NCBI GenBank assembly: GCA_002327905.1
Contig: DCUY01000104.1
Span: forward strand, 7,904-71,903
From: a candidate division WOR-3 bacterium UBA2202
GTDB taxonomy: Bacteria > Hydrothermota > 32-111
Length of the DNA stretch: 64,000 nucleotides
Reading direction: 5' to 3'
Positions 8,244 to 64,000 of this stretch are shown piece by piece; within the stretch, counting starts at the first letter, position 1, and the number at the start of each line of letters is the position of its first letter. A program made the position numbers and the translations under genes. The notes beneath the pieces were generated by a model, which was given only the letters and a program-made list of their open reading frames with translations, was not told where the DNA came from and ran no database searches.

Positions 8244-11200
8244 TTATCCGAACAGGATGTCATCCATTGATGAGCTCTCCGAAGAGGACTCCTTGGATGA
8301 TTCACTCTCCATTTTTTTAAATGTTTTCTGAAATTCGCTTATCTGCCTCTCTTCTGCAAATTCTTTCACAGGAGATTTCTCAGAGGCAAAGTCAACATGC
8401 TTGACTGCAGGCTTCGACAATGTCTCAAATATATCCTGTCTTTTTTCTTCAGGATGTTTTTCTCTTTGGAATACATCAGTTGTCTTTTTCGATGCCTCTT
8501 CTGATTTTCCCATCCGCAATTCTCTTATCTCTGACTGCAGAATTTTGTTCTCTCTTAACAATCTCTCTGATGTCTCCTCAAGTTCCCTTATTTTCATAAT
8601 GCCGCCTGCAAAAGATTTCTCTTCAGGAATCCTCTTTGCATTTTCAAGCTCCAGTTCTTTTGTCTTCCTGTGAAGGGATTCGATCTCCTCTTTCGCTTTT
8701 ACAATCTGATTGTTCGTTCTTTGAAGAGATTCTCTTAGCTCCTTATTCTCTGAAAACAATTTGATCATCTCCGCATCAGCCCCAGATTTATCCTTTTCTG
8801 ATGCATTGACTTCAGTGAGGCGCTTATTCTCTTCCGTGAGAGTGTTTATTTCTTTTTCAATAGAATTCTTTTTCTTAGAAAGTTCTTCAAGGTGGAGATT
8901 CTCTGCGTCAAGTTTGGAATCAATCTGTTCTTTATCATCTGTCGCCTTCTTCAATTCTCTCTGAAGAGAGCTGTACTGTTCCTGCATCTGTTTTTCTATT
9001 TTTGCTATCTTAACCATCTTTTGAGTTGTATCTGAGAGTTCCTTTTTCAGATTTTCAAGTTTCACCTGATCATCCACAAATCCCTGTTGCATCTCTTGTC
9101 TCTTCGAACTCATGCGGGCTATCTCAGTGTTCTTCGATTTCAATTCCTCTGTAACACTGCTTAATTCCTTTCTGTATGTAAGCAGAGTCTTCTCCTTGTC
9201 TGAAAGTTCACTCTCAATGTTCTTTTTAATATTCTCTATTTTTTCTATTCCAAGAACAGCCGCAAGCTTCCTCTCCTGATTCTTTCTGAGAACAATGATT
9301 TCATCCAGTTTGTTCTTTATTTTCAGAAGTTGATTGAGGCTCATTTTTGCTTCAATTACCTGAGGAGCATCATCCTGCAGAGGCTTGTATTCCCTTATAT
9401 TGGGAAAATCAGTTTCGATTCTCTCCACCTTTTCATTAAGCTCCTCAAAATCCCTCTTCCTCTCTTCAATGATTGTTCTCGTCTTTATCTCTTCCGCTTT
9501 AAGCTCCTCTATCTCCTGTGCAAAACTCTCCTTCTGCAGTCTGACATCCTCTAAATCTACGGAAGCCATTTTTATGCTCATCTGCAAGCCGTTAAGCCTC
9601 TCCTGTGTCTCTTTCAATTCTGCTCCGCATTTGACTGCTTCCGACTCTTTTTCCTTCAGCCATTTTTCAAGTTCGTCTTTGTCTGACCTTAGGGAGACTG
9701 TCTCATTCTTCAGTTCTATCAGTTCTTCATCAAGAGCCTGCTTCTCCTTCTCCATATCTTCAATTGCAGAAGATACTCCCCTCATCCTGTCTTTAATCTC
9801 ATTCTCTATATTGACCTCTCTGTCATGAAGCTTTGCAATTTTAGCATCCATTGACTCTATTTCTTTCTTCTTTGAATCAAATTCTTCATCTATAATGGCA
9901 AGCTGTGTCTCAGCCTCTTCCATTTTAATTTTCATCTCGGAAAATGCTTTTTCTGAGGATTCGTTTTTGTCCTTAATTTGCTTTTCAATATCCTCAAGAA
10001 TCTCTTCCTGCTCAAGCACTTCCAATTTATATTTGTCAATTTCATTCATTATGTGCGTCTTCTCTTCTGTCTTCTTTGCTATCTCCTCCACAAGTGTCTT
10101 TCTTTCAAGCTCTTTTCCGTTGAAATTAGCGAGTATCATTTCAGCATTGGCTTTTAATTTCTCAAGCTCGCTTTTGTCTTCAATTATACTCTCTTTCAAA
10201 GACGAATCCTCTTCCTTGAGATCTTTTATACTCTTATCCAGTTCAATTTTTTCTTTCCTTGTCTTTTCAATATCGTTTATTAGAGCAGTCTTTTGTTTCT
10301 CATACTCAGCCATTTCATTCTTAATCTCCACATATCTGTCGGAGAAACCCGTGTACTCCTTCATTATTTCATCAAGTTTGTTTTGATTCTGTTTTATTGA
10401 GGTCTTTATATTTTCGATTTTCTCGCTTTCGGATTCAACCTCTGCCTCAAGAATCTTTTTCTTCTTCTCATTGGAATTTACCAGAGTATCTATCTCATTG
10501 AAGTAGGATTCCCTGTCTTTTATCTGTTTCTCTTTGTCGGAAAGCATCTTAATCGCATTTTCATAATCCGTTCTTGCCCTCTTAACTTTCTCCTGATATT
10601 CACCAAGCTGTGTTTTTATCTGGTCATATTCCGATTTTGATTCCTGCAGTTCTTTCTCAACCGACTCTTTCTCCTTCTTGATTTTATCTCTTTCCTTTTC
10701 ATTCTGAGAAGTCTGATTCTTAATCTCCTCAGAATGCTTCTTTAACTCCTTTATCTTCTCTCCAATGTCCATCTCCTGATTCAGAGTCTTTCCCATTCCT
10801 GATTCAAGATTGTTCAAATATTCTCTCTTATCGCTTATTTTTCCTTCAAGGTCTTTAAGAGTATTCTTTTCTTCTTCAATTTTCTTTAATAAGATATCCT
10901 GCTCTTTCTTCGCCTTTTCAATTACTGTCCTTGTCTCCCTCTCCTGCTCTTTGTACTCCTCAAAATTGCTTTCAAGGTCAGAGCGCGATTTTTTCAGGTC
11001 TTCAATTGACTTTTTCAGAAAATTCAATTCATTCTCTGATTTTTCCTTTTCAAGTTTTATCTGATTAAGGTTAGTTCCCTCTCTGTCAATTTTGGATTTT
11101 GCCTCTCTAATCAATTCTTCAAATTCCTTTTTCTCTTTTATTGCAGTTTCAATACCATCATTGAGAGTCTGTTTATTATTTTTCTTTTCTTCAACTTCCT

Positions 11201-12521
11201 TTTTTATCTTCTGATATTCCGAGTCAACCTGATACAGTTTGTCGGCAGATTCTTTTTCAAGGAGTTCAAGTTTTGTTTTCTGCTTTTTATACTCCTCCGA
11301 TATTCTTGATAATTGGCCTTTCTCCCTTTCTATATCCCTTCTGACGGCATTTAATTGTCTGCCATTGTCAGCAATTTTTTCGCGCAGTTCCTTCTCTTCG
11401 ACTGATTTCTTCATTATTATCGAGACCAATTCGTTCAAACTCTCTTCATCTGCCTTTATTGTGGCAGTATCTAAAATTCTGTTTTCAACTGCAGGTTTTA
11501 CAGTATCGGAGTCAAAATCGACCATCTCCTCTTTTCTTCCGAAATTGTCGGTCTCTTCAACAAGAGTCTCTTTTGCCGGTTCCTCTTCGGGAGTCATATC
11601 AATCGCATCAAGCATGTCAGAAAGCCCCTCTGTTTCAATTTTGTCTGACATACTCTCTTTTTCCGCAACCGCAGATTCCTCCTCAGTAATTGAAGCACCT
11701 TCTTTTAAGTCATCCAAAGAAATTTCTTTTATTTGCTCTGTTTCAATTATCCGAGAAGCGGCTTTTGGCTCTTCTATCATTGTTTCAGTCTTATCTTCTT
11801 CAGTTTCAAGAACTATTTCTTCAGAGTCCCCGATTTTTATGTCAGTCGGAGCATCTGCATCCAAATCGACATCTTTTATATATGTCACATCATTATCTTC
11901 GCTTTCAAGCTTCCCTATTCCGTCCACAAGAGAATCAAGAGATTCTGTCTCCATAATACTTTCAGCTGACTTGACTTCCTGTTCAATGCCGCTCTGTTCA
12001 GGCATCTTCTCCTCTTTCTCTGCTTCAGTCCTTTTTATTTCCGGTGTTTCATCATTAATTTCAATCCCAAGATGAGTTTCTTCCTGAACCGCATCCAGAG
12101 AATCAGTCAAATCCATTAAATCCGAAAGGGTATTCTCTAAATTGTCTTCATTCTCTTCTTTTTTAATTTCTTCCGCAGAGACAGAGAGTCCTTCAGTTTT
12201 AGATTCATCAGCATCCTGCGCTGAAGCTTTATTGTCCTGCATTTCATCTATTGAATCAAGCATATCCGTGAGGGAATCTATGGATGATTCATCAGTCTCC
12301 GCTTGTGTTTGAGAATCAAGATCGGAAATTATATCCTCCAAACCTGAAGAGATATCTTCAATTGTCTCATCTTGGCTATCCGTCTTGTCCTGCTTGAGCA
12401 CAGCTCTCTCTTTTCTGTCTAAGGAAGCGGGTTTTATCCCGCGCCTTTTCTTTTTCAGGACAATCGGCGCAGATTTTTTATCGGATTTTTTTTCATCGTC
12501 TCCGTTTTTCTTAAAAAACAT
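8244..12521 (-). CDS. Giant (1425 aa) acidic coiled-coil protein of unknown function
   Basis: Uninterrupted ORF with a short basic N-terminus (KKSDKKSAPIVLKKKRRGIK) and no signal peptide or TM segment. An acidic 300-aa region carries five SLxDxLDxID-like motifs. It is followed by roughly 1000 aa of E/K-rich heptad-like sequence and an acidic, Ser-rich tail. The purine-rich coding strand generates long spurious Ser/Phe-rich ORFs on the opposite strand. Confidence 0.6.
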   Translation of the reverse strand: MFFKKNGDDEKKSDKKSAPIVLKKKRRGIKPASLDRKERAVLKQDKTDSQDETIEDISSGLEDIISDLDSQTQAETDESSIDSLTDMLDSIDEMQDNKASAQDADESKTEGLSVSAEEIKKEENEDNLENTLSDLMDLTDSLDAVQEETHLGIEINDETPEIKRTEAEKEEKMPEQSGIEQEVKSAESIMETESLDSLVDGIGKLESEDNDVTYIKDVDLDADAPTDIKIGDSEEIVLETEEDKTETMIEEPKAASRIIETEQIKEISLDDLKEGASITEEESAVAEKESMSDKIETEGLSDMLDAIDMTPEEEPAKETLVEETDNFGRKEEMVDFDSDTVKPAVENRILDTATIKADEESLNELVSIIMKKSVEEKELREKIADNGRQLNAVRRDIEREKGQLSRISEEYKKQKTKLELLEKESADKLYQVDSEYQKIKKEVEEKKNNKQTLNDGIETAIKEKKEFEELIREAKSKIDREGTNLNQIKLEKEKSENELNFLKKSIEDLKKSRSDLESNFEEYKEQERETRTVIEKAKKEQDILLKKIEEEKNTLKDLEGKISDKREYLNNLESGMGKTLNQEMDIGEKIKELKKHSEEIKNQTSQNEKERDKIKKEKESVEKELQESKSEYDQIKTQLGEYQEKVKRARTDYENAIKMLSDKEKQIKDRESYFNEIDTLVNSNEKKKKILEAEVESESEKIENIKTSIKQNQNKLDEIMKEYTGFSDRYVEIKNEMAEYEKQKTALINDIEKTRKEKIELDKSIKDLKEEDSSLKESIIEDKSELEKLKANAEMILANFNGKELERKTLVEEIAKKTEEKTHIMNEIDKYKLEVLEQEEILEDIEKQIKDKNESSEKAFSEMKIKMEEAETQLAIIDEEFDSKKKEIESMDAKIAKLHDREVNIENEIKDRMRGVSSAIEDMEKEKQALDEELIELKNETVSLRSDKDELEKWLKEKESEAVKCGAELKETQERLNGLQMSIKMASVDLEDVRLQKESFAQEIEELKAEEIKTRTIIEERKRDFEELNEKVERIETDFPNIREYKPLQDDAPQVIEAKMSLNQLLKIKNKLDEIIVLRKNQERKLAAVLGIEKIENIKKNIESELSDKEKTLLTYRKELSSVTEELKSKNTEIARMSSKRQEMQQGFVDDQVKLENLKKELSDTTQKMVKIAKIEKQMQEQYSSLQRELKKATDDKEQIDSKLDAENLHLEELSKKKNSIEKEINTLTEENKRLTEVNASEKDKSGADAEMIKLFSENKELRESLQRTNNQIVKAKEEIESLHRKTKELELENAKRIPEEKSFAGGIMKIRELEETSERLLRENKILQSEIRELRMGKSEEASKKTTDVFQREKHPEEKRQDIFETLSKPAVKHVDFASEKSPVKEFAEERQISEFQKTFKKMESESSKESSSESSSMDDILFG

Positions 12522-15629: not shown

Positions 15630-17135
15630 TTATCTTATCAAAAAATGCTTTTCTTTGATTGTTCTATTATTCTCTTTCAGTTTTATAAAGTATATCCCGT
15701 TCTTCAAGTGTCTGATGTCTGTTTTGTGCGTTCCGCTTGCTTTTGATTCTTCTTTGATTACCTCTCTGCCTGATATGTCATAAACTGTCAATGTGCCTTG
15801 TGTATTTGTATTCCATATTATGTATTGATTTTGTATTTGCATTTTTAGCTCATGGCTCACAGCGCATGGCACAAGGTTTTTTGCGCACGGCTCATGGCTC
15901 TCTTCTATCCCATTCACTGCCACCGAGTCTTCAAAGATTCTTGTGCATTCATCTCCAACACTCTGGCCGCAGCCGCTGAAGATTATCTCATCATAGCCGT
16001 TCTTATTAAAGTCATGACACTTTATATGGCTCTGGATTGTATTGTATGTAGGGTCAGTGTATTCCCAGCTCATTTCAAACTGATTGTCTCCTGTTGACTC
16101 CCATACCTCTATATGTCTCCCGCCACATATCACAAGTTCATTCAAACTATCCCCATCAACATCTCCATAATCCATATCCCCTGCATACACTAAGCTGTAA
16201 TCTGTATCTACTTCAAAGTCTCTTCTCCATATTGTATCATACACTCCCGTGCCGCTTGTGTCCTCATAAATTATAAATGCATAAGAATTAGGTGGACCTA
16301 AATAATTTAGTTGATATTTCATTATCTCATTTGTTCCATCTCTGTCTATATCAGGTAATATCAATAGCGCCCTAGATCCATATCCTCCTTCAGTTAATGA
16401 ATCCTGTTTTATGAAAGTGGTATCTGATAAATTTTCTGATTCAAAGAAATACAAATAATTCTCCGGTGATGTTATCACCATCTCTGTTAATCCATTTCCA
16501 TCTATATCACCAATATCCATTGCACTTTGTACTCTTGTACTTTCTGCAAATGTATTCAATATTTCATACTGATTATCTCCCGTACAGGTAAAATAATACC
16601 AGCCATAACCATTAGTCGGTGTTGTTATTTCAGGTATGCCTCCACCATAAATCCTTTCTATTCCATCACCTTTTAGATTGTTGGAAATGCTTAAGTAATA
16701 AACAGATCTATACAGTGTATCGGATTGCCATACTAAATTGTCAAAAAATGATGTGCTGTCAATCTGCTCTAATATCATCAGATGCATATATTCATCATCT
16801 CCTGGCATCCCAATAAGCAAATCTTTGAGTCCATCTTGATCAAAGTTACCAGTGCCTGAAGTCCATATAAGATTCGTATCTACAATGGAATCAATCAATA
16901 CATAAGTATTTTCACTTTGGTATTCATAAAATAATATTTTTCGTCCATTATTTATTATAAGCTCTTCATCAAAATCATTATTGTAATCAGATATTTGTTG
17001 TCTTGTAAAAGACATACTTGGATGCACCCCTCTCTGTATATAACTTATCTCTTCAAATGATTCTGCGCGTGTTTTCAAGAATAAGCATAATGTAATAAAA
17101 AACAATAATCTAAATATTTTCATTTTTTTCCTCAT
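15630..17135 (-). CDS. Secreted FG-GAP/VCBS-repeat protein with T9SS C-terminal sorting domain
   Basis: Signal peptide MRKKMKIFRLLFFITLCLFLKTRA. Repeated DxDGxG calcium-binding-like motifs (DQDGLKDLLIG, DIDGNGLTEMV, DVDGDSLNELVI, DFNKNGYDEIIF). C-terminus ...GTLTVYDISGREV...GIYFIKLKENNRTIKEKHFLIR, typical of a type IX secretion CTD. Confidence 0.7.
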   Translation of the reverse strand: MRKKMKIFRLLFFITLCLFLKTRAESFEEISYIQRGVHPSMSFTRQQISDYNNDFDEELIINNGRKILFYEYQSENTYVLIDSIVDTNLIWTSGTGNFDQDGLKDLLIGMPGDDEYMHLMILEQIDSTSFFDNLVWQSDTLYRSVYYLSISNNLKGDGIERIYGGGIPEITTPTNGYGWYYFTCTGDNQYEILNTFAESTRVQSAMDIGDIDGNGLTEMVITSPENYLYFFESENLSDTTFIKQDSLTEGGYGSRALLILPDIDRDGTNEIMKYQLNYLGPPNSYAFIIYEDTSGTGVYDTIWRRDFEVDTDYSLVYAGDMDYGDVDGDSLNELVICGGRHIEVWESTGDNQFEMSWEYTDPTYNTIQSHIKCHDFNKNGYDEIIFSGCGQSVGDECTRIFEDSVAVNGIEESHEPCAKNLVPCAVSHELKMQIQNQYIIWNTNTQGTLTVYDISGREVIKEESKASGTHKTDIRHLKNGIYFIKLKENNRTIKEKHFLIR

Positions 17136-17144
17136 ATAATAATG

Positions 17145-17176
17145 GAGCGGAATAAATCAATTAATTTATTCCGCTC
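17145..17176. terminator. Perfect 13-bp inverted repeat hairpin between the two T9SS cargo genes
   Basis: GAGCGGAATAAAT-caatta-ATTTATTCCGCTC, lying downstream of the 17195 stop on the minus strand. Flanks are A/T-rich. Confidence 0.4.
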
Positions 17177-17194
17177 TCATTAATTAGTGTTTTG

Positions 17195-20185
17195 TTACTT
17201 TATTATATTTATTCTGCTTGTCTCTGTCTCATCTCCATTCTTTAGAACTGCGAAGTAAACTCCGGTTTTATAGATATTGCTCAATTTTATACTGTTTGTT
17301 CCTTTGTTTACTTTTGCAATTATAGATGTTACTTCTCTGCCTGAGACATCATACACTCTTACTTCAACATTGACTTCTTTTTCGGATGTATAATTAATAG
17401 ATACTTTATCTTTGATCGTAAAGATATTTTTGTTTATCTCTTTTGATTCTGTTATTGGTGCAAATATCTTTATCTTATTTGATACTGCAACCACTTCTTC
17501 TCCGTCTGTTTCGTACTGGTAAACCAATACCTCTGCATCTCTATTTGGGTTGCCTCTCTTCCTGTCTATGCTTACAACAATGCTGTAATCCTGATATGTC
17601 TCCTTTGGAAGTGTTATCTCAGTAGTATCAGGTCTGTTGGTATGTCCTGTTACTACTGCATATACTTCTCCGTCTATCTGGATTATCTGTGGCTTTACTG
17701 GGCTTCCCTCCGAGGTAATTACCTTAACCGTATAATTCATCTCAGGATTGAGTCCGTTTATTGTTGTATTAAGTTGTTCAACAGGTTCTTTAACTGCTAT
17801 GTATTCATAAAGAGGAGATGTTGTTACCGTTTCTACTGTATCCTCCGGTTCCGATTCGATAAATGTAAATGCAGTAGGATAATAGTCCCTTGTCATCCAT
17901 TTAATCCTATAGTTCCCGTTGCTTCCTTCACTCCATATATGATAGCCTCTTACCTTCGTCATCAATAAAGGTTTTGTCTCAAATTCAGTCGTATGTATTG
18001 AGTCTGCTCCTGTATATACACTTATATCGTTTCCGCTGTAGTTGGTTATGAGTTTGTTGCTGTTATTGATATAGTTTATGAATATACCGTTGCTTGCTTT
18101 GGGATACTCATTCTTTCCCATTGTTACATTCACCTTTACTGCATTTGCATCAATTATTCCTTTACTCAATTTTCTTCTGTATATGTCTTTTGTTTCGTCT
18201 GTATTTACCGCCTCATATACAAATGATGTTGCATCTCCATAATAATCTGTTGTAGGTGCATTACAAATTTGGTTGGCGTTGCTGACTGTAGTTGGCTGAG
18301 TCCATTGCATAATGTTTGTGTTCCAAATCTTAGCTATGTAGTTTGTTGATGTATCTATAAATCCTATTACTTGTGCGGTAAAATCTGTTGTATTATACAA
18401 TGAAAACACAGGTGATTTCACAGGAACTTTATCATATTCACCCAAATAAGATACAATAGTGTCATAGTAAATACCGTCTGTATTCAACTCATTCATGCTT
18501 GTTAATATGTAATCTCCCTCTTCTCTCTGAAGATAACTATGATTTATGTATCCAAGATATGTCTGGCTTGTCGTACTATTATAACCCAGAACCGGCTCGC
18601 TCAGCAATATCGCAGGATTTACCAATGTATCCTCAGGTATCCACGGACTTGATTTGATAGAATAACTGTAAGAGCTCATCCCATCTCTCCATACTGCTAT
18701 CAGTCCGCTCGCAGTTCTTGTTAGTACTGGCTCAGTTCCTCTGCCCAATACCTCAAGATCCCATGTCTGTCCAAAATCTATACTCCTTCCATACACCACA
18801 CTTTCACCTGTCGTATAAACCATGTCCATCTCGTCAGTTTTTAGCTTTCTTACTATATGCTCCTGATTGTTTGTTCCGAAGGTTTCAGAAGTATTGCTCC
18901 ACATATATGCGCCTATTGTTGACCTGTATGCAACATATCCCACTCCGTCGATTGTAAGTTTCAGCGGTCTGTTGCTATTCAGATATGCCGGTATGAAAAC
19001 CCATCCATACTCATCCGTTATCCCCTGATAATAGAATCCTCCCGGTTGATTGTCTGTCAGTGTTACTGTCAAGCCCGGAATTCCTGTTATTCCCTTCGTT
19101 TCATCTTCTCTTGATGCCTCTATATATATCATATTATCCTTTATTACAGGAACCTCTGTCGGCTTCCCAACACGCTCAATCACCTTATAATCGACATCTA
19201 TTTCATGTCTCTCTATCTGTGTTAGCTCATTAGTATTTTGAACCACAAAATAGTATGGCAGTGTATCTGTAGCAGTAAAAGCAATTCTAATTACTCCATT
19301 TACATCGGCACTCTTTTCTGCTGTTATAATCTGTCCCTTATTATTCTCAATATGTGCTGATGCATTTGTAAATGGATTACCATCTGTACATCTCGTTAAT
19401 CTGATGCCCACTGTATCTAAAAATTCATATTTCACTGTTCGGTCAACAATCTGTGATACAAAAAAACTGTCCATGTCAGGTTCACTACTTATATCATTGT
19501 AGTCGCTCGTATGCTCTTGCACAAATTGCTTTTCAGTATATATGTATACTCTTATCGGTTTTGATGTATCTTCAAATCTAAAAGTGTCACCCAATATTAT
19601 ATAATTGCCATTTTGAATGTTCATTATTATTGCTTTTTCTGGAGCTTGTTCAGTTTGATTACTTGTTGTATCATATTTTACGATATTGTTGTTTACAATT
19701 ATTCGCCAGTAATAATGATTGACACCATCACGCCCCCTTCCTCCTGTTAACTGTATCCCTATTGAATTCCCATCATTTAAATGCAATTCTAGTGTGTTAT
19801 AATTATACAGATTATACCAATTATATACCACTAATTGAATATTGCCATGATCGAAAAGGGCATTTGACAGTAATTCCGGTATCTCCTGATAAACTCCACC
19901 TCTTATTAAATGAGTATCTGCCGGTAAAAAAACTTTTAGATATTTATCTTCTTCATATATATCTATTCCACTAATTGAATTAAACACCGTCCACTTGGAA
20001 TCAATTATACTATCATTGAATCCATCTGAGATATTCTTTATTAAATCTGCTTGTAAATTGCCGATTGGCAATAATGATAACAACATCAATCCAGCCAATA
20101 CTAACATAAATCGTAAGTATCGGGGGGGGGGGGGGTTAAACGCTTTTCGAAATTGTTCATACTTTCCTCCTTTGGTTAAATTCAA
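17195..20185 (-). CDS. Large secreted protein with T9SS C-terminal sorting domain; 5' end carries a C14 homopolymer (candidate phase-variable gene)
   Basis: 996-aa frame. Signal-peptide-like RFMLVLAGLMLLSLLPIGNLQA. C-terminus ...VRVYDVSGREV...GVYFAVLKNGDETETSRINIIK (T9SS CTD). The ORF-track start is a TTG at 20185 with no SD. The only SD-equipped start (AGGAGG 20170..20165, ATG 20160..20158) is out of frame by one nucleotide across the C14 tract. Confidence 0.7.
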   Translation of the reverse strand: MNLTKGGKYEQFRKAFNPPPPRYLRFMLVLAGLMLLSLLPIGNLQADLIKNISDGFNDSIIDSKWTVFNSISGIDIYEEDKYLKVFLPADTHLIRGGVYQEIPELLSNALFDHGNIQLVVYNWYNLYNYNTLELHLNDGNSIGIQLTGGRGRDGVNHYYWRIIVNNNIVKYDTTSNQTEQAPEKAIIMNIQNGNYIILGDTFRFEDTSKPIRVYIYTEKQFVQEHTSDYNDISSEPDMDSFFVSQIVDRTVKYEFLDTVGIRLTRCTDGNPFTNASAHIENNKGQIITAEKSADVNGVIRIAFTATDTLPYYFVVQNTNELTQIERHEIDVDYKVIERVGKPTEVPVIKDNMIYIEASREDETKGITGIPGLTVTLTDNQPGGFYYQGITDEYGWVFIPAYLNSNRPLKLTIDGVGYVAYRSTIGAYMWSNTSETFGTNNQEHIVRKLKTDEMDMVYTTGESVVYGRSIDFGQTWDLEVLGRGTEPVLTRTASGLIAVWRDGMSSYSYSIKSSPWIPEDTLVNPAILLSEPVLGYNSTTSQTYLGYINHSYLQREEGDYILTSMNELNTDGIYYDTIVSYLGEYDKVPVKSPVFSLYNTTDFTAQVIGFIDTSTNYIAKIWNTNIMQWTQPTTVSNANQICNAPTTDYYGDATSFVYEAVNTDETKDIYRRKLSKGIIDANAVKVNVTMGKNEYPKASNGIFINYINNSNKLITNYSGNDISVYTGADSIHTTEFETKPLLMTKVRGYHIWSEGSNGNYRIKWMTRDYYPTAFTFIESEPEDTVETVTTSPLYEYIAVKEPVEQLNTTINGLNPEMNYTVKVITSEGSPVKPQIIQIDGEVYAVVTGHTNRPDTTEITLPKETYQDYSIVVSIDRKRGNPNRDAEVLVYQYETDGEEVVAVSNKIKIFAPITESKEINKNIFTIKDKVSINYTSEKEVNVEVRVYDVSGREVTSIIAKVNKGTNSIKLSNIYKTGVYFAVLKNGDETETSRINIIK
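20122..20135. repeat. G14 (C14 on the coding strand) homopolymeric tract inside the 5' end of the T9SS cargo gene
   Basis: Counted directly: cggggggggggggggtt at 20121..20137. Encodes PPPP in the annotated frame. Confidence 0.9.
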
Positions 20186-58460: not shown

Positions 58461-58749
58461 ACATTGATGTTTTATTCTTCCTTGTGATTATCGTATGATA
58501 TGGTGTAATGCAAAGCACTCTGGCTCTCAGTGGCGTCTTCGCCGAAGCAATCTCCTTACTTCTATTCACTCTTTTGTTTTTTTGTGTCTCCCCGCCTCTG
58601 AACTCTCAACCATTAACTATAAACTATTAACTCTTTGATTTTGTTTTGCCCACGGCACATGGCTCACGGTATCTTTGTCACTTTTTTCCACCCCCGCCGC
58701 TATATATACTCCGAACTCCGAATGGATTTTTTTGCATTTTACCATTTCT

Positions 58750-59667
58750 TCACTTTTTCAGTCTTTTATAGCCGTCTTCAAGAATAATCATGAAGTTTTC
58801 CTTCTTATCATTTATGAACGGATAATCCTCAACGAAATTCATTATCTTATCCCTGCTGTCAAGCACTTCCTTTATAATGTTCAAACAAATTGATTCGTCC
58901 ATTTTCATGGCATTTGCCAATCTTAAAAAATCATCGGCTTTCAGTTTGTTTTTTTTACCGTTTACGGTCAAAGCGCTGTCCTCTTCATTTTTAATGACAA
59001 GTTTTGAAGAAACGATATCATAGCACGGAGAAAGAACTTTCTCATTGTCATCATCATATAAGAATCCGTAATTCTTAAGATGTCCATCCCCGTTTCCCAC
59101 TATAAAATTCATAACAACAATCTTAAAAAAGTTTTGAATTTCTAAGCCCGGAAACTTTGCGTATGCTCTTATCGCTTCTCCGACCCTTTCCGCGCTTCCT
59201 GTATATTTGTCATCCGCCTGAATCACGGACTGCATATCTTCAAAATGAATCTTTTTATTTCCTTTTCTGTCAAATCGCCTCACAATATATGCGCTTGAAC
59301 CGTCACGAAGAGTTACGATTCCGTGAAGAGCGGTCTTAACTCCGGCTATTTCAAATATTGTCATGCACATATTTTCATTTTGAGGCATTTCGGGGAATCT
59401 GTCCGTCTGCGGTTTAAGAATGAATTGACCTCCCGCATAAACAACTTCAACCTCTCCATTTTTTCTGTTTATTTTTGTCGAGAGTTTCGGCTGAACACCC
59501 GATATTGAAAGTTTTCCGACACACTCTTGCGCCTTCTCGGAAATTTCATTGAGAGAAAATCTTACGGAAGGAATTTTTGAAACTGAAAAGACCCGTCTCA
59601 CGCATTTTTCATGCATGAGATCCTCACCCTTCAAAGGAAGGCCGCATGATATGCAGTATCTGTTCAC
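58750..59667 (-). CDS. HipA-family serine/threonine kinase core (HipT-like toxin of a HipBST-type module)
   Basis: ISGVQPKLS (E. coli HipT has ISGYQPKLQ) and VGNGDGHLKNYG (catalytic-loop xGNxDxHLxN); 305 aa; lacks the HipA N-subdomain; N-terminal C-x2-C...H-x2-C. Confidence 0.7.
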   Translation of the reverse strand: MNRYCISCGLPLKGEDLMHEKCVRRVFSVSKIPSVRFSLNEISEKAQECVGKLSISGVQPKLSTKINRKNGEVEVVYAGGQFILKPQTDRFPEMPQNENMCMTIFEIAGVKTALHGIVTLRDGSSAYIVRRFDRKGNKKIHFEDMQSVIQADDKYTGSAERVGEAIRAYAKFPGLEIQNFFKIVVMNFIVGNGDGHLKNYGFLYDDDNEKVLSPCYDIVSSKLVIKNEEDSALTVNGKKNKLKADDFLRLANAMKMDESICLNIIKEVLDSRDKIMNFVEDYPFINDKKENFMIILEDGYKRLKK

Positions 59668-59984
59668 TCCATCTCCTTAATCGAAACTGCGCCTATCGCA
59701 TCTTCGCAGGTCTTTATCAAAAAACCGAAATCATCGTCTTTGTCGAGTTTCAATTTCAATCCTGTGATGTCTCTGTACCAGCCCTCAGGAAGAATGGATT
59801 TAAAAAAAACAAAGAGCTTCTTTGACTCGTATGTTTTTTCCGTCAATGGGAAATTAACCGATATCGGAATTCCCGATTTAAGATATTCATCAAAATAAAC
59901 AAATCTGTAGCCGTCTTCAATCTCCTCTATTATTCCCGCATCCATCTCTTTGAAAAAAACAATACCCTTCCTATTCTTTTTCAT
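59664..59984 (-). CDS. HipA N-terminal-subdomain protein (HipS-like)
   Basis: 106 aa; ...FFKSILPEGWYRDI...IGAVSIKEME aligns with the HipA N-subdomain-1 pattern (FFdNLLPEG...GAV). Overlaps the kinase gene by 4 nt. Confidence 0.6.
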   Translation of the reverse strand: MKKNRKGIVFFKEMDAGIIEEIEDGYRFVYFDEYLKSGIPISVNFPLTEKTYESKKLFVFFKSILPEGWYRDITGLKLKLDKDDDFGFLIKTCEDAIGAVSIKEME

Positions 59985-60171
59985 CTTTTACTGCCTCAAG
60001 ATGGTAGCCGAAAAGAGAGAGCACTCTGTTTACTTTGTCCATACGCATAGTTTTTTTGCCCTGTTCAACTTCCCTAACAAACCTCAGTCCGACACCGGAC
60101 TTCTTGGCAAGCTCTGTCTGAGTCAAGTTTGCCTGCTTTCTTAAAGTTTTGAATCTGTTTTTTATTTCCAT
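59971..60171 (-). CDS. XRE-family HTH protein (HipB-like)
   Basis: 66 aa; LRKQANLTQTELAKKSGVGLRFVREVEQGK helix-turn-helix; overlaps the HipS-like gene. Confidence 0.65.
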   Translation of the reverse strand: MEIKNRFKTLRKQANLTQTELAKKSGVGLRFVREVEQGKKTMRMDKVNRVLSLFGYHLEAVKDEKE

Positions 60172-60177
60172 AGTGAT

Positions 60178-60326
60178 ATTTTATACCCTAAACAGCATAA
60201 TGTCAAGCTCTTTCTTTTAAAGAATCAAATTATTATACCATTAAGGGTATTATTCAGAAGTCATTATACCTTTTTAGGTATTATTTATAGCTCTTGAAAT
60301 TCCATTTATACCCTTTTGAGCATAAT
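60178..60326. promoter_or_regulatory. hipBST promoter with four repeated operator-like palindromes
   Basis: Minus strand: TTGACA (60206..60201) - 17 nt - TAAAAT (60183..60178). Four copies of TTATACC(C)-N6-8-(G)GTATTAT / GCATAAT at 60181, 60233, 60264 and 60306, two of them perfect ATACC-N6-GGTAT palindromes. Copy 1 sits between the -35 and -10. Confidence 0.5.
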
Positions 60327-60968
60327 AATAGCAAGTTTAATGCGAATAGGATGGTGCATGTTTGAATGAATGTCAATAGTGAATAAAACTTCCCGCAGAA
60401 GTCAAGACAAAAAAATATCTGTTACTTTTTTCTCGAAGAATACAAAATGTCAAGCATCCGTCATATCTGTATTAAGGTCACAAAATGTGACCTTAAAGCT
60501 TTATTCTGAAATCAATAGGATAAATTGAAAACCTATTCCTGATAAAGAATCCAAAAATACAAGCTACGGTTCCATTTGTTTAAATATATTACTTTTTCAT
60601 CATTTTGATTATATTCATAGGAGGCAATATAATCGGTTGTAAACCTGTTCTACTGCTAATATTGCTGACAAATTCTCTAATATATGGGAATATAATAGCA
60701 GGTGCATTGTTTTTACTAAAATCCTCCAAATCCAAATTGGGATTTGCCGAATCGGTGCTGAATAAACCAATCATTGTAACCATTAGTTTAATCGGAGATT
60801 TTTCATCATCCCTTCCAAACTCAACCTGAATTTCTGTCTGAAGTTTATCTTTTTTCTCATTTAAATTATTTTTTACATTGAAATCAAATTCCTTTTAAAT
60901 TCTACTTAAAAATGATTTCAACTCCATACTTTTGTTTAGCTTCAAAAGCCTCACCTGGTGATATTTGG

Positions 60969-61038
60969 GACTCCTTGTGTTATTTATTTTTCTGAATTAC
61001 AATAATTCAGTTTTAATTCAAGGAGTCCTTTTTTATGC
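60969..61038 (+). terminator. Nested hairpin followed by T6 (plus-strand intrinsic-terminator-like element) in a gene-poor region
   Basis: GGACTCCTTG ... CAAGGAGTCC, a 10-bp perfect stem enclosing an inner CTGAATT-acaat-AATTCAG hairpin, followed by TTTTTTAT. Confidence 0.35.
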
Positions 61039-61161
61039 TCAATGAGTTTTATTCTCATTTTTTTATATCCATGAAATTCCCCTCTATTGCTATATTATAA
61101 CTTCTTCTATCCTAATCTTTTATAAAGAATCGCTCAACTTAGGGTATAGTTATTATCACCT

Positions 61162-62667
61162 TCATTTTTCTTTTGATTTTTTGTGTCTTTCGTCCCATAA
61201 AGGTTTGGTTAATTTACGAATTTTTTCACCAAATTCTGCCATCTTTTCAAAGTATTCAGGGTCATGAAGTGCAATTTTTGCATTTTCATTTTCAGGTTTT
61301 ATGTCGTCACTTAAAATTTTTTCTCTAAAACATTTGTAATTATCTCTAATGGAACAAGGTGCAAAGAAATTACCTGAAGGGTCTTTAAGATAACCATACT
61401 CTTCCTGCCAGGATCTACCTCTTGTAAAAAAGTCACTCATTAATGCATCGACTATTGTTTTGTCATTTTGATAAAGTTCTATGATGTTGTCTTTGTAATA
61501 CGGAATGAATACGCAAGGCATAATGTTGCCATTCCAGTCAATATGGAAATAACCTCCTTCTCGCGCATAAGCCATGCAACCACGACTTCCAGCACCTGCA
61601 TTCCAGAAATCTCCTACAAAATATCCTTTATCAAACATTATGTGTTCCCATTCTTTTAGTAGATTAACTCTTTCTTCAGGAGAAAGAACTAAATCCATTG
61701 TATCTTTTGCTCTTCCTATTGGCATTAAATGAAACATCCACATATAAGTTGCTCCAACCTCATCAAACCAGTATTCATAAAATTTATCTTCCAAGAGAGA
61801 ATTTATATTCTTTTTAGTAGCGGTTACTGAAATTCCAAATGGAATTCCAATTTTTTTCAAATGTTCTATGTTTTCTAAAATCTGTTTGAATACTCCTTTT
61901 CCCCGTCTGTCATCTGTTTCTTTTTCAAATCCTTCTACAGATATTGCAGGTGTTATGTTTCCTGTTTCTGCCATTCTTTCTAATCTATCTCCATATAATA
62001 GTAATCCATTTGTAAAAACAAGGAAAAACATATTCTGAAAAGTTTCTGCTATGGATATTATATCCTTTCCTGCTTCATTCCAGACGAAAGGTTCTCCACC
62101 AGAAACAACAACAAATGTTGAATCACATATATCCCGCATCTCTCTTATAGCCTTTTCTACTACCCAATAGGGCAAAGAAGCCATTGTCTGAGCCTGGCTT
62201 TCCGCATAACAACCAATACATCTCAGGTTGCATTTTTGTGTTGGTGAGATGGTGAAAAATCCAGGGGGCGCAACATTGTACTTTTCTATATATTTCTTTT
62301 TTACAGCAGATTTTTCTGAAGTGTCACTTTCTAACATATTTTTCATAAATATTTCCCATGATTTTTCCACGTATTTTTTTGAAATAAATCCTCTATCACA
62401 ATTTTTCATTAGCTGATTCACAATATTGATAACAAATTGTCCTACCACTCTTGCAATATATTCCGACTCAAAATATGTCGACTTAATTTTCTCAAACATC
62501 TTGTGTTTTATCCTGGCAACTGCCAGATTTCTTAAACATTTTTTAAGTGGAATTTTTGATGTAGATAATTTTATCAAGTTAAACACCACAGAGCTTTTTA
62601 CTCCAGCCATAAACTTTCTTGCATTTTTACGACTTGCATTTTTAGGATTAAACATCTGTGTTATCAT
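61162..62667 (-). CDS. Radical SAM enzyme with SPASM/twitch-type C-terminal domain and a 130-aa N-terminal extension
   Basis: FFTISPTQKCNLRCIGCYAES (CX3CX2C); C-terminal Cys-bearing region GSRGCMAYAREGGYFHIDWNGNIMPCVF; 501 aa. Confidence 0.75.
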   Translation of the reverse strand: MITQMFNPKNASRKNARKFMAGVKSSVVFNLIKLSTSKIPLKKCLRNLAVARIKHKMFEKIKSTYFESEYIARVVGQFVINIVNQLMKNCDRGFISKKYVEKSWEIFMKNMLESDTSEKSAVKKKYIEKYNVAPPGFFTISPTQKCNLRCIGCYAESQAQTMASLPYWVVEKAIREMRDICDSTFVVVSGGEPFVWNEAGKDIISIAETFQNMFFLVFTNGLLLYGDRLERMAETGNITPAISVEGFEKETDDRRGKGVFKQILENIEHLKKIGIPFGISVTATKKNINSLLEDKFYEYWFDEVGATYMWMFHLMPIGRAKDTMDLVLSPEERVNLLKEWEHIMFDKGYFVGDFWNAGAGSRGCMAYAREGGYFHIDWNGNIMPCVFIPYYKDNIIELYQNDKTIVDALMSDFFTRGRSWQEEYGYLKDPSGNFFAPCSIRDNYKCFREKILSDDIKPENENAKIALHDPEYFEKMAEFGEKIRKLTKPLWDERHKKSKEK

Positions 62668-62693
62668 TACATCCTCCTTTTTGCTTCACGCTT

Positions 62694-63600
62694 TTAATAA
62701 TTTACTGCTTTATTAATAAATCTATCAAAATTTCCTATAAAACTCGATCTTGTTAAAAGAATTATTGTGGCAATAAAGTAATTGAACCAACACCTGAAAC
62801 TATCATAGTAATAGCAACCGGAATACCAAATCGCCGCAGGGGAACCAAATTGGATAATGTGAGCACTAAAAAATCCCATTGTCACAGTTATTACATTAAT
62901 AAAAATTGCCTTGCAGGTTGTTTCTAATGTTTTATCCAGCGCCTCAAGTTCAGTTCCGGCTTTCTTAAATTCTTTCCGAAACCTGCTGAAAAAATGGATT
63001 GAATAATCTATCCCAATACCAATAGGGACGCTTCTTACAAGAACAGTGGCAACGTCCAGTGGAATGCTTGAGAACCCCATAAAACCAAAGATGATTAAAA
63101 GTGCGAAACCTATTGGCACAAGACCTATCAACCCACCAATAAAAGAACGCATCATGAACATAAGACAGATAAATACCAGAACAACGGCAATAATAATACT
63201 CTGGATTTGGCTGAGCATAATACTATTATCTAAATTCTGATAGATAGATGGCATCAATGTTTGAGCAAAAATGACATTAGAATTATTTACTTCTTTGATA
63301 TATTCCTCAATATTCTCAAGCAATTTCCATGTTCGTGCCGTATTCATATTCGTAATAGTTGCCTGAATGATGGCTTCTGTTTTTGCTGGATTAACCAATT
63401 GGCTCATAATTTCTTCCTCTTCTAAAAGAAACCAGAGATTGCTGACCTTATCTTTACTATCCGGTATTGTTTTCCCTTCGTCCATTACATCACTCATTTC
63501 TTCTATTATATCTACTACTGATTGGGGATTATGAACATCTTTTTTTGATTCTAAGAAATCTTTCATCTTTTTCATCTCTTCCAGAACCACAGGGTCCTGA
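62694..63600 (-). pseudogene. MMPL/RND-superfamily exporter (COG1033, HpnN-like), C-terminal half only; interrupted by IS630 and possibly frameshifted near its 3' end
   Basis: Second sterol-sensing-like TM bundle MFMMRSFIGGLIGLVPIGFALLIIFGFMGFSSIPLDVATVLVRSVPIGIGIDYSIHFFSRFRKE. The N-terminal half is absent and the 5' end runs into the IS630 transposase gene. An alternative frame near 62770..62810 gives a more MMPL-like C-terminus (GIPVAITMIVSGVGSITLLPQ*). Confidence 0.5.
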
Positions 63601-64000
63601 ATATCGACTTTAACTATCGTGGTGTCTCTAACAATTCTTGACATTTGAAATTTTATTAAGAATGCTTTCGGCTGAGGCTGTCCAGACAAAAACTTTGGGA
63701 TTTTGATTGTGATTATCTATATATTGATTGATAACATTAACAAGCTCTTTAATATTTTCAAATGATCCTCTGCGTATTATTTTGCAGGTTATTTCAGAGA
63801 ACCATCGTTCTGCATGATTCAGCCATGAACTTGATGTTGGAGTTAAGTGCAGATGAAAACGAGGATGACGCTCCAGCCATTTTATTACACTCTTATGTTT
63901 ATGGGTTGCGTAATTATCTACAATAAGATGCAGGTCAAGTTCAGGTGGAGTCTTGACATTGATTATCTGCAAAAACCTTATGAACTCCTGATGCCTGAAC
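63570..64000 (-). mobile_element. IS630-family insertion sequence (3' part; extends beyond the window)
   Basis: Transposase C-terminal region, 63628..64000 and open to the edge: ...FRHQEFIRFLQIINVKTPPELDLHLIVDNYATHKHKSVIKWLERHPRFHLHLTPTSSSWLNHAERWFSEITCKIIRRGSFENIKELVNVINQYIDNHNQNPKVFVWTASAESILNKISNVKNC. This is the classic DDE motif region of IS630/Tc1-like transposases. Confidence 0.8.

What the first reader, a model, noticed from the sequence alone, without database searches (positions are those of the whole stretch)
61162..64000. 501-aa radical-SAM/SPASM enzyme coupled to an MMPL lipid-type exporter whose gene is interrupted by IS630
The radical-SAM protein has CX3CX2C at residues about 137-144, a Cys-rich SPASM/twitch-like C-terminus and an unusual 130-aa N-terminal extension. 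It lies immediately downstream of, and co-oriented with, a COG1033/MMPL (HpnN-like) RND exporter.

Radical SAM plus MMPL pairings are known for lipid tailoring (hopanoid HpnH/HpnN). Radical-SAM enzymes of about 500 aa also make membrane-spanning ether or tetraether lipids (Tes/GDGT-MAS, MSS), which have been proposed in non-Bacteroidetes T9SS-bearing lineages. A RiPP maturase is the alternative, given the N-terminal extension, which is of the size of an N-terminal RiPP recognition element (RRE).

An IS630 element (transposase 3' end at 63628..64000) sits inside the 5' half of the exporter gene. The exporter's 3' end may also be frameshifted (alternative frame near 62770..62810). The module may therefore be inactivated here, or the other half of the exporter lies beyond the IS.
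Basis: inference. Interest (0 to 1): 0.65.

Follow-up and report, generated by a model that had tools for sequence, protein, structure and literature searches.

The report
Lipid-coupling radical-SAM gene beside broken exporter
An intact radical-SAM gene of the family that joins two fatty-acid tails into membrane-spanning lipids (Mss) sits next to the dead 3' remnant of a lipid-type exporter gene cut by an IS630 element; it is a new member of a recently described enzyme family, not a new kind of system.

Summary
Window 61162..62667(-) encodes an intact 501-aa radical-SAM protein. CX3CX2C lies at C146/C150/C153, not 137-144. There are three further invariant Cys (364, 385, 438), not a full SPASM motif, and a basic all-helical N-terminal extension.

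The protein is 34% identical (E 3e-76) to the 482-aa Thermotoga radical-SAM protein that I infer to be Mss, the membrane-spanning lipid synthase. It shares that protein's architecture and its unusual taxonomic spread. It falls in a sister clade (B) for which I found no characterised member. It is not close to Tes, HpnH or anSME, and it has no RRE-like fold.

The upstream MMPL piece (62694..63614) is the C-terminal 42% of a ~754-aa HAE3-type exporter. An IS630 end cuts it at ~63615, and it carries +1 and -1 frameshifts 105 nt apart. Its closest intact relatives form TetR-MMPL-LolA_like-DUF1302 cassettes without the radical-SAM gene. Among 85 loci of the radical-SAM family, 10 carry an MMPL gene and 16 an adjacent TetR.

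The enzyme is therefore probably functional and the exporter is dead. Published work already lists Mss homologues in WOR-3. Interest is low to moderate.

The parts
61162..62667 (-). Intact 501-aa radical-SAM gene of the Mss (membrane-spanning lipid synthase) family, clade B
   Evidence: ORF. Pfam Radical_SAM. It retains all 68 invariant columns of the 34-sequence family alignment. It is 34% identical over 408 aa (E 3e-76) to the Thermotoga 482-aa protein P0357. AF2 model pLDDT is 88.
62263..62667 (-). N-terminal extension (residues 1-135): five predicted helices, net charge +18, no transmembrane helix. Proposed as a membrane-surface or lipid-docking domain.
   Evidence: Secondary structure of the model. 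Charge and hydropathy. An extension of about 120-130 aa with positive net charge is present in both family clades.
62209..62232 (-). CX3CX2C radical-SAM cluster motif (C146, C150, C153)
   Evidence: Invariant in the alignments.
61333..61605 (-). Twitch-like auxiliary-cluster region with three invariant Cys (C364, C385, C438). The clade-B signature is PCSIRD, against PCPIID in the Thermotoga-type clade.
   Evidence: No Pfam SPASM hit for the window protein, whereas clade-A proteins carry PF13186.
62673..62678 (-). Shine-Dalgarno-like AGGAGG, 5 nt before the ATG of the radical-SAM gene
   Evidence: Read directly from the sequence.
62694..63614 (-). Pseudogene remnant: the C-terminal ~42% of an HAE3/MMPL RND exporter. 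It corresponds to codons ~438-754 of the closest intact relative.
   Evidence: MMPL and TIGR00921 hits. tblastn with full-length MMPLs. 81% aa identity to intact genes in L094 and L095. Junction alignment.
62767..62873 (-). Out-of-frame stretch of 35 codons inside the remnant. It is bounded by a +1 T in the T-run at 62868-62873 and a 1-nt deletion between 62768 and 62767.
   Evidence: Frame switch seen in tblastn. DNA alignment with three intact relatives. The same sequence occurs in independent assemblies.
63615..64000 (-). Right-hand part of an IS630-family element: transposase 3' end at 63628..64000 and the right terminal inverted repeat at about 63614-63646. The element runs off the window.
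   Evidence: NCBIfam IS630 and Pfam DDE_3. Full 366-aa transposase and 33-nt inverted repeats in L001 at 422-454 and 1528-1560. L001 is 100% identical to the window.

Best explanation
The 501-aa protein belongs to the Mss family. These are radical-SAM enzymes that join the ends of two fatty-acyl chains of membrane lipids by a C-C bond, producing diabolic-acid-type membrane-spanning lipids.

Shown here:
- A canonical radical-SAM cluster site (C146, C150, C153) and the SGGEP SAM-binding motif.
- Three further invariant Cys, enough for one auxiliary Fe-S cluster with an open or non-Cys fourth ligand.
- A basic helical N-terminal domain with no transmembrane helix.
- Homology to the Thermotoga Mss-type protein.

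Inferred by analogy with the T. maritima and T. ethanolicus enzymes, which were tested by expression in E. coli:
- 5'-deoxyadenosyl radicals abstract H from the omega or omega-1 carbon of two acyl tails that meet at the bilayer midplane, and the two carbons are joined.
- The auxiliary cluster helps to hold or oxidise an intermediate.
- The basic N-terminal domain docks the enzyme on the cytoplasmic face of the membrane.

In other genomes the gene is usually paired with a TetR regulator. In a minority it is embedded in, or lies next to, a TetR-MMPL-LolA_like-DUF1302 envelope transporter cassette for hydrophobic compounds.

In this WOR-3 genome only the last 42% of the MMPL gene survives. It is cut by IS630 and frameshifted twice, and no TetR, LolA_like or DUF1302 partner gene is adjacent. 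The exporter is therefore non-functional. The enzyme gene is intact, keeps a strong ribosome-binding site, and may be transcribed by read-through from the co-oriented IS.
For: Homology and published criteria:
- BLASTP against P0357 (Thermotoga sp. Mc24, 482 aa) gives 34% identity over 408 aa, 236 bits, E 3e-76. phmmer against Thermosipho P0158 gives E 4e-66 and 39%.
- The published criteria for Mss homologues are E<=1e-50 with identity >=30% (PMC13159169), or E<=1e-50 with length >=400 aa (10.1101/2023.10.20.563219).

Identity of the Thermotoga protein:
- P0357 lies in the Thermotoga region whose flanking genes match PDB entries 1VLJ and 2AJR almost perfectly.
- It is the only radical-SAM protein of >=400 aa in that region.

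Shared features across both clades:
- All six Cys and a basic ~120-130-aa N-terminal extension are conserved.
- The taxonomic spread (Aminicenantes, Bacteroidales, Planctomycetes, Spirochaetes, Anaerolineae, delta-proteobacteria, Patescibacteria, Woese- and Pacearchaeota) matches the spread published for Mss homologues.
- The preprint names WOR-3 among lineages encoding Mss homologues.

Neighbours in 85 loci:
- TetR within 500 nt in 16, including Thermotoga.
- Patatin in 11, MMPL in 10, phasin-like in 8, ABC1/UbiB in 8, LolA_like in 7, DUF1302-like in 6, FabH in 4.

Exporter decay.
Against: - No member of clade B has been tested. The characterised T. maritima enzyme is in clade A. The tree separating the clades is neighbour-joining without support values.
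- I could not obtain the sequences of Tmari_0825 or WP_129545148.1. The equation 'Thermotoga 482-aa protein = Mss' rests on the >=400-aa criterion, synteny and taxonomic distribution. A second radical-SAM/SPASM gene of 323 aa lies next to it.
- The E-value of 3e-76 is pairwise, not database-scale.
- Clade B differs near the third auxiliary Cys (R441 against Ile, W378 against Ala/Ser). Regiochemistry or substrate may therefore differ.
- The window contains no other lipid genes such as Ger/PlsA.
- Expression was not tested, and the promoter scan was no better than chance.
Confidence: 0.65

Rival explanations
1. Clade B enzymes act on lipids or other hydrophobic molecules but carry out a different radical reaction from tail-to-tail coupling. 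Examples would be a mid-chain cross-link (Gms-like) or a cyclisation. The product would be handled by the MMPL/LolA_like/DUF1302 transporter.
For: - Clade B is separate from the clade that holds the tested T. maritima-type enzyme.
- There are clade-specific residues next to the auxiliary cluster.
- Two clade-B paralogues occur in one Bacteroidales locus, L044, which suggests functional divergence.
- The gene is embedded in a hydrophobe-transporter cassette in L071 and L061, with a CrtC-like lipocalin gene in L061.
Against: - Architecture, all six Cys and the N-terminal domain are the same as in clade A.
- Both clades share the TetR pairing.
- Published surveys already pool these sequences as Mss homologues.
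- Gms carries a COG4001 domain; I saw no extra domain here.
Confidence: 0.2
2. It is a RiPP maturase: a radical-SAM/SPASM-twitch enzyme whose N-terminal extension is a peptide-recognition element.
For: - The best sequence match among solved structures is SkfB (E 2e-12).
- The extension has the size of an RRE.
Against: - The extension is modelled as five helices with no beta-strand and is strongly basic (+18).
- There are three auxiliary Cys instead of the SPASM set.
- No NCBIfam maturase model comes near its cut-off (best 66 bits against 650).
- Conserved neighbours are TetR and lipid genes. The small adjacent ORFs that recur are phasin-like, not precursor-like.
- The protein is homologous over about 400 aa to the inferred Thermotoga lipid enzyme.
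Confidence: 0.04
3. It is a bacterial Tes/GDGT-MAS homologue making tetraethers, or an HpnH-type hopanoid enzyme paired with an HpnN-type exporter.
For: - The length is similar to GDGT-MAS, and both have an N-terminal extension (query residue 139 aligns with chain residue 111).
- An MMPL gene is the neighbour.
Against: - HpnH scores 47 bits against a cut-off of 225. HpnN scores 44 bits against 752 and 22 bits against 1100.
- Intact relatives of the exporter come with LolA_like and DUF1302 partners, not hopanoid genes.
Confidence: 0.03

Closest known systems
Mss, membrane-spanning lipid synthase (T. maritima Tmari_0825; T. ethanolicus WP_129545148.1; Sahonero-Canavesi et al. 2022, PMC13159169)
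   Same: - A radical-SAM protein of about 480-500 aa.
- A basic N-terminal extension of about 120-145 aa before the CX3CX2C motif.
- Three further invariant Cys.
- 34% identity (E 3e-76) to the Thermotoga 482-aa protein.
- An adjacent TetR gene.
- The same odd taxonomic spread, including DPANN archaea.
   Different: - It lies in a sister clade (B) for which I found no tested member.
- The motif near the third auxiliary Cys is PCSIRD instead of PCPIID, and W378 replaces Ala/Ser.
- It gives no Pfam SPASM hit, unlike clade A.
- Here it sits next to an exporter remnant rather than a TetR gene.
Tes / GDGT-MAS (archaeal tetraether synthase, PDB 7TOL/7TOM)
   Same: A radical-SAM enzyme that joins lipid tails, with a long N-terminal extension and a comparable length.
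SPASM/twitch radical-SAM enzymes (SuiB, SkfB, anSME, CteB)
   Different: - No RRE-like fold in the N-terminal domain.
- Only three auxiliary Cys.
- 16-19% sequence identity.
- Lipid-gene neighbourhood rather than peptide or sulfatase genes.
HAE3-type RND cassettes with LolA_like/DUF1329 and DUF1302 partners (for example AmeABCD of Castellaniella defragrans, PMC6394551; Pseudomonas DUF1302/DUF1329/RND clusters)
   Same: The remnant's intact relatives form TetR-MMPL(754-769 aa)-LolA_like-DUF1302-like cassettes. TIGR00921 (HAE3) is the best NCBIfam hit.
   Different: - Here only the last 42% of the MMPL gene remains. It is cut by IS630 and frameshifted, with no partner genes adjacent.
- The cargo is unknown.
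- It is not HpnN.
IS630-family insertion sequences
   Same: A DDE_3 transposase of 366 aa with HTH domains, 33-nt imperfect terminal inverted repeats, and a length of about 1.14 kb.
   Different: Nothing unusual was found. The distal flank in the only contig that crosses the IS (L001) is non-coding repeat DNA, not the exporter's 5' half.

Membership tests
Mss (membrane-spanning lipid synthase) | Radical-SAM CX3CX2C cluster site and SAM-binding motif | tested here: met
   C146, C150, C153 and SGGEP are invariant. Pfam Radical_SAM E 7e-21.
Mss (membrane-spanning lipid synthase) | Published sequence criterion: E<=1e-50 and >=30% identity to a confirmed Mss (PMC13159169) | tested here: met
   34% identity, 236 bits, E 3e-76 against Thermotoga sp. 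Mc24 P0357. Two caveats apply. P0357 is a proxy for Tmari_0825, inferred from synteny and length. The E-value is pairwise; from the bit score I estimate about 1e-57 at nr scale.
Mss (membrane-spanning lipid synthase) | Garcia et al. criterion: E<=1e-50 against T. ethanolicus Mss and length >=400 aa | tested here: inconclusive
   The length criterion is met (501 aa). The T. ethanolicus sequence could not be obtained; searches did not list it.
Mss (membrane-spanning lipid synthase) | Shared architecture: basic N-terminal extension of ~120 aa plus three auxiliary Cys | tested here: met
   All six Cys are conserved in 100 sequences of both clades. The median motif start is residue 122-128, and the N-terminal charge is positive in both clades.
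Mss (membrane-spanning lipid synthase) | Falls in the same clade as an experimentally tested enzyme | tested here: inconclusive
   The neighbour-joining tree puts the window protein in clade B and Thermotoga in clade A. The tree has no support values, and the position of the T. ethanolicus enzyme is unknown.
Mss (membrane-spanning lipid synthase) | Makes diabolic or iso-diabolic acids from two fatty-acyl chains | not testable with these tools
   This needs anaerobic heterologous expression and GC-MS.
Tes / GDGT-MAS | Full-length sequence and fold similarity to archaeal Tes | tested here: not met
RiPP radical-SAM/SPASM maturases | N-terminal RRE (PqqD-like winged helix with a beta-sheet) | tested here: not met
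   The AF2 model shows residues 12-130 as five helices with no strand. There is no PqqD or RRE Pfam hit.
RiPP radical-SAM/SPASM maturases | Full SPASM Cys set (CX2CX5CX3C) and score above a family cut-off | tested here: not met
   Only three conserved auxiliary Cys. The best maturase model scores 66 bits against 650.
RiPP radical-SAM/SPASM maturases | Conserved adjacent precursor-peptide gene | tested here: not met
   Clustering of neighbours over 84-85 loci found no conserved short ORF other than phasin-like proteins.
HpnH / HpnN hopanoid module | Scores above the NCBIfam cut-offs for HpnH and HpnN | tested here: not met
   HpnH 47 bits against 225. HpnN 44 bits against 752 and 22 bits against 1100.
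HAE3/MMPL RND exporter | Full-length protein with two homologous halves, about 730-990 aa | tested here: not met
   Only the C-terminal ~317 codons are present, with two frameshifts. TIGR00921 scores 120 bits against a cut-off of 352. The piece is a remnant of a member, not a functional member.
IS630 family | DDE_3 transposase and terminal inverted repeats | tested here: met
   The window fragment scores 82 bits against a cut-off of 100, because only 114 aa lie inside the window. The complete 366-aa transposase and 33-nt inverted repeats are in L001, which is identical to the window.

The most novel reading that the evidence does not exclude
Clade-B Mss-like enzymes, for which I found no tested member, are the missing tail-coupling step for branched or otherwise unusual membrane-spanning lipids (brGDGT-type cores) in anaerobic candidate phyla such as WOR-3, KSB1, Aminicenantes and Bacteroidales. 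In diderm lineages they would work together with a TetR-controlled MMPL-LolA_like-DUF1302 machine that moves these lipids across the envelope. That enzyme-transporter link does not appear in any of the papers I searched or read.
Probability: 0.2. Interest if true: 0.6.

Novelty: new member of a known kind. Interest (0 to 1): 0.3.

Why it matters
Mss-type enzymes are candidate sources of bacterial membrane-spanning lipids. These include the brGDGTs used as palaeotemperature proxies, whose producers in anoxic settings remain unclear.

This locus adds one WOR-3 member and three modest points:
- The family splits into two clades, and I found a tested enzyme in only one of them.
- A TetR gene is the family's most constant neighbour, from Thermotoga to Aminicenantes.
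- In about one locus in eight, the gene lies with a hydrophobe-transporter cassette (MMPL, LolA_like, DUF1302).

For this genome the practical message is that the exporter is dead and the enzyme gene is intact.

Tried and rejected
Searches that led nowhere:
- The afdb50 fold library was not available.
- The supplements of the Mss paper are not held. Literature searches for TM0824 and Tmari_082x found nothing beyond the two known papers.
- I looked for a T. maritima TetR structure as an anchor through the PDB. No informative hit came up.
- I looked for Fe-ADH or PfkB genes in my loci to reach T. maritima PDB entries. None were found.
- The first name look-up of ten distant representatives gave only 'Firmicutes bacterium'. 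The second, chosen by thermophile-like composition, found Thermosipho. That led to the Thermotoga locus.
- A search from a Firmicutes member, meant to reach the T. ethanolicus Mss, did not list it.

Readings rejected:
- NCBIfam TIGR00921 aligned the MMPL piece to profile positions 64-311, which suggests an N-terminal half. Comparison with real full-length relatives shows it is the C-terminal half; the two halves are internal repeats.
- The RRE, Tes, HpnH/HpnN and anSME readings were rejected on the scores given above.

Not informative:
- The promoter and terminator scan was no better than shuffled sequence.
- The IS-distal flank in L001 is repeat DNA, not the exporter's 5' half. Because the other contigs with this gene that reach the IS break inside it, that join may be an assembly artefact.
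Full report
**What is in the sequence.**

On the minus strand, from the window end inwards, the elements lie in this order.

| Element | Coordinates | Key evidence |
|---|---|---|
| IS630-family transposase, 3' part | 63628..64000 | DDE_3; NCBIfam IS630, E 4e-23 |
| MMPL-type ORF | 62694..63689 | Pfam MMPL, E 5e-16 |
| Gap with an AGGAGG ribosome-binding site | 27 nt | read from the sequence |
| Radical-SAM ORF, 501 aa | 61162..62667 | Pfam Radical_SAM, E 7e-21 |

Contigs from six public datasets are 99.98-100% identical to this stretch, and those that extend upstream end inside the IS. A near-identical cluster member is annotated as candidate division WOR-3.

**The radical-SAM protein.**

No NCBIfam model comes near its cut-off. 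The best is AhbD at 78 bits against 500. HpnH scores 47 bits against 225.

The protein has more than 3,000 homologues, with identity of 45-62% over nearly the full length, N-terminal extension included. In a 34-sequence alignment the invariant Cys are C146/C150/C153 plus C364, C385 and C438. C446 is not conserved. This amounts to a twitch-like single auxiliary site rather than a full SPASM motif.

The AlphaFold model (pLDDT 88) shows residues 12-130 as five helices with no strand. That region has net charge +18, and the protein has no transmembrane helix.

**Identification as an Mss-family member.**

An exhaustive HMMER search gave 252 representatives at E<=1e-30. One of them, P0158 (E 4e-66, 39% identity), is a Thermosipho protein. 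Its homologues occur in many Thermotogales genera.

In Thermotoga sp. Mc24 the orthologue P0357 (482 aa) lies between a TetR gene and a 323-aa radical-SAM/SPASM gene. The region's Fe-ADH and PfkB genes match PDB 1VLJ and 2AJR almost perfectly. From memory, those entries are T. maritima TM0820 and TM0828, which would make the 482-aa gene TM0824.

Sahonero-Canavesi et al. showed that T. maritima Tmari_0825 and T. ethanolicus WP_129545148.1 make diabolic-type diacids when expressed anaerobically in E. coli. They defined homologues by E<=1e-50 and >=30% identity. Garcia et al. required E<=1e-50 and length >=400 aa, and listed WOR-3 among lineages encoding Mss homologues. In the Thermotoga locus only the 482-aa gene passes the length criterion.

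The window protein is 34% identical to P0357 over 408 aa (E 3e-76).

The taxonomic spread of the family in 586 genome hits also matches. It covers Aminicenantes, Bacteroidales, Planctomycetes, Spirochaetes, Anaerolineae, delta-proteobacteria, Saccharibacteria, Armatimonadota, Latescibacteria, and Woese- and Pacearchaeota. This is what the Mss papers report.

**Two clades.**

A neighbour-joining tree, without support values, separates two groups.
- Clade A holds Thermotogales, Firmicutes, Synergistetes, Atribacteria and gamma-proteobacterial plasmids.
- Clade B holds the window protein.

Both clades keep all six Cys and the basic N-terminal extension. Clade B has W378 and R441 where clade A has Ala/Ser and Ile. 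I found no tested clade-B enzyme in the papers I read.

**Neighbourhoods.**

Counts over 85 non-redundant loci:

| Neighbour | Loci |
|---|---|
| TetR within 500 nt | 16 |
| Patatin | 11 |
| MMPL | 10 |
| Phasin-like | 8 |
| ABC1/UbiB | 8 |
| LolA_like | 7 |
| DUF1302-like outer-membrane protein | 6 |
| FabH | 4 |

Two loci show full clusters.
- KSB1 locus L071: TetR-MMPL-rSAM-x-LolA_like-DUF1302-x-ABC1. The MMPL stop lies 34 nt before the radical-SAM start, the same junction as in the window.
- WOR-3 locus L061: PhaR-like, rSAM, CrtC-like lipocalin, MMPL, LolA_like, DUF1302, FabH.

The context is lipid or hydrophobe metabolism, not peptides.

**The exporter remnant.**

Full-length MMPLs align to the window only by their C-terminal halves: L071 residues 453-965 and L011 residues 458-735.

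A metagenome scan found relatives with 81-60% aa identity. These are intact 754-769-aa genes in TetR-MMPL-LolA_like-DUF1302 cassettes, and none carries the radical-SAM gene.

DNA alignments place the start of homology at window 63614, which is codon ~438 of 754. They also show a +1 T at 62868-62873 and a -1 between 62768 and 62767.

The IS inverted repeats are 33 nt at L001 422-454 and 1528-1560, which puts the IS end at window ~63615. In L001 the DNA beyond the IS is non-coding repeat, not the exporter's 5' half. That join may be an assembly artefact.

No TetR, LolA_like or DUF1302 gene is adjacent in this genome. Downstream lie a SecB-like gene with an in-frame stop, then hipBA.

**Verdict.**

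The enzyme gene is intact and is best read as a clade-B Mss-family lipid tail-coupling enzyme (confidence about 0.65). The exporter is a dead remnant. The RiPP, Tes, HpnH/HpnN and anSME readings are not supported.

Since Mss homologues in WOR-3 are already published, this is a new member of a known kind. The recurrent but minority link to the MMPL/LolA_like/DUF1302 cassette, and the untested status of clade B, are the only points of wider interest.

Noticed in passing
window 60589..60927 (-): A SecB-like gene of 112 codons carries an in-frame TAA at 60895..60897, after the tenth codon. Only the last 64 codons form an ORF (Pfam SecB, E 4e-8). It looks like a second decayed gene next to the exporter remnant.
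   Followed up: partly
window 58750..60171 (-): A HipA_C / Couple_hipA / HTH toxin-antitoxin-like module (305, 106 and 66 aa) lies between the dcw cluster (ftsQAZ) and the radical-SAM region.
   Followed up: no
window 60000..63000: G+C drops to 0.29-0.35 here, against 0.40-0.47 in the neighbouring ftsA-ftsZ region. Together with the IS, the pseudogenes and the toxin-antitoxin-like module, this suggests a variable or acquired region.
   Followed up: no
L001 1..340 and window 58547..58700: The DNA beyond the IS in L001 contains a 34-nt tandem repeat (TGCCATGAGCCATGTGCCGTGAGCAAAACAAAGA, 2.9 copies) and 7-nt repeats. It is 80-93% similar to the ftsZ-hipA intergenic region of the window. This looks like a dispersed non-coding repeat family of this genome.
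   Followed up: partly
L093 8949..12037 (Thermotoga sp. Mc24): The Thermotoga Mss-type gene is flanked by a 323-aa canonical radical-SAM/SPASM gene upstream and a TetR gene downstream. A MarR plus split-MMPL pair lies about 7.5 kb away. The role of the second radical-SAM gene is unknown to me.
   Followed up: partly
proteins P0390-P0418: Clade-A Mss-like proteins, 46-49% identical to the Thermosipho protein, occur in Enterobacteriaceae and Vibrionaceae. Examples are an Escherichia albertii plasmid, Klebsiella, Salmonella, Edwardsiella and Photobacterium. These are unexpected hosts for a membrane-spanning lipid synthase.
   Followed up: no
L009 9529..12912 (Spirochaeta thermophila): Directly downstream of the clade-B gene is a 1127-aa fusion protein: 2-oxoacid dehydrogenase E1, transketolase, lipoyl and FabH (KAS III) domains. 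This would link branched-chain primer supply to fatty-acid initiation.
   Followed up: no
L044 7845..13559 (Bacteroidales MAG): Two clade-B paralogues (474 and 487 aa, each about 46% identical to the window protein) lie 2.8 kb apart, with a 763-aa gene on the other strand between them.
   Followed up: partly
L061 9622..10794 (WOR-3 MAG): A CrtC-like / lipocalin-domain protein (390 aa) is encoded between the Mss-like gene and the MMPL-LolA_like-DUF1302 genes. A PhaR-like regulator gene lies upstream.
   Followed up: no
window 8244..12521 (-) and 15630..20185 (-): A 1425-aa ORF has no Pfam match. Two proteins carry Por_Secre_tail (T9SS sorting) domains, one of them with FG-GAP repeats. This is consistent with a T9SS-bearing lineage.
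   Followed up: no
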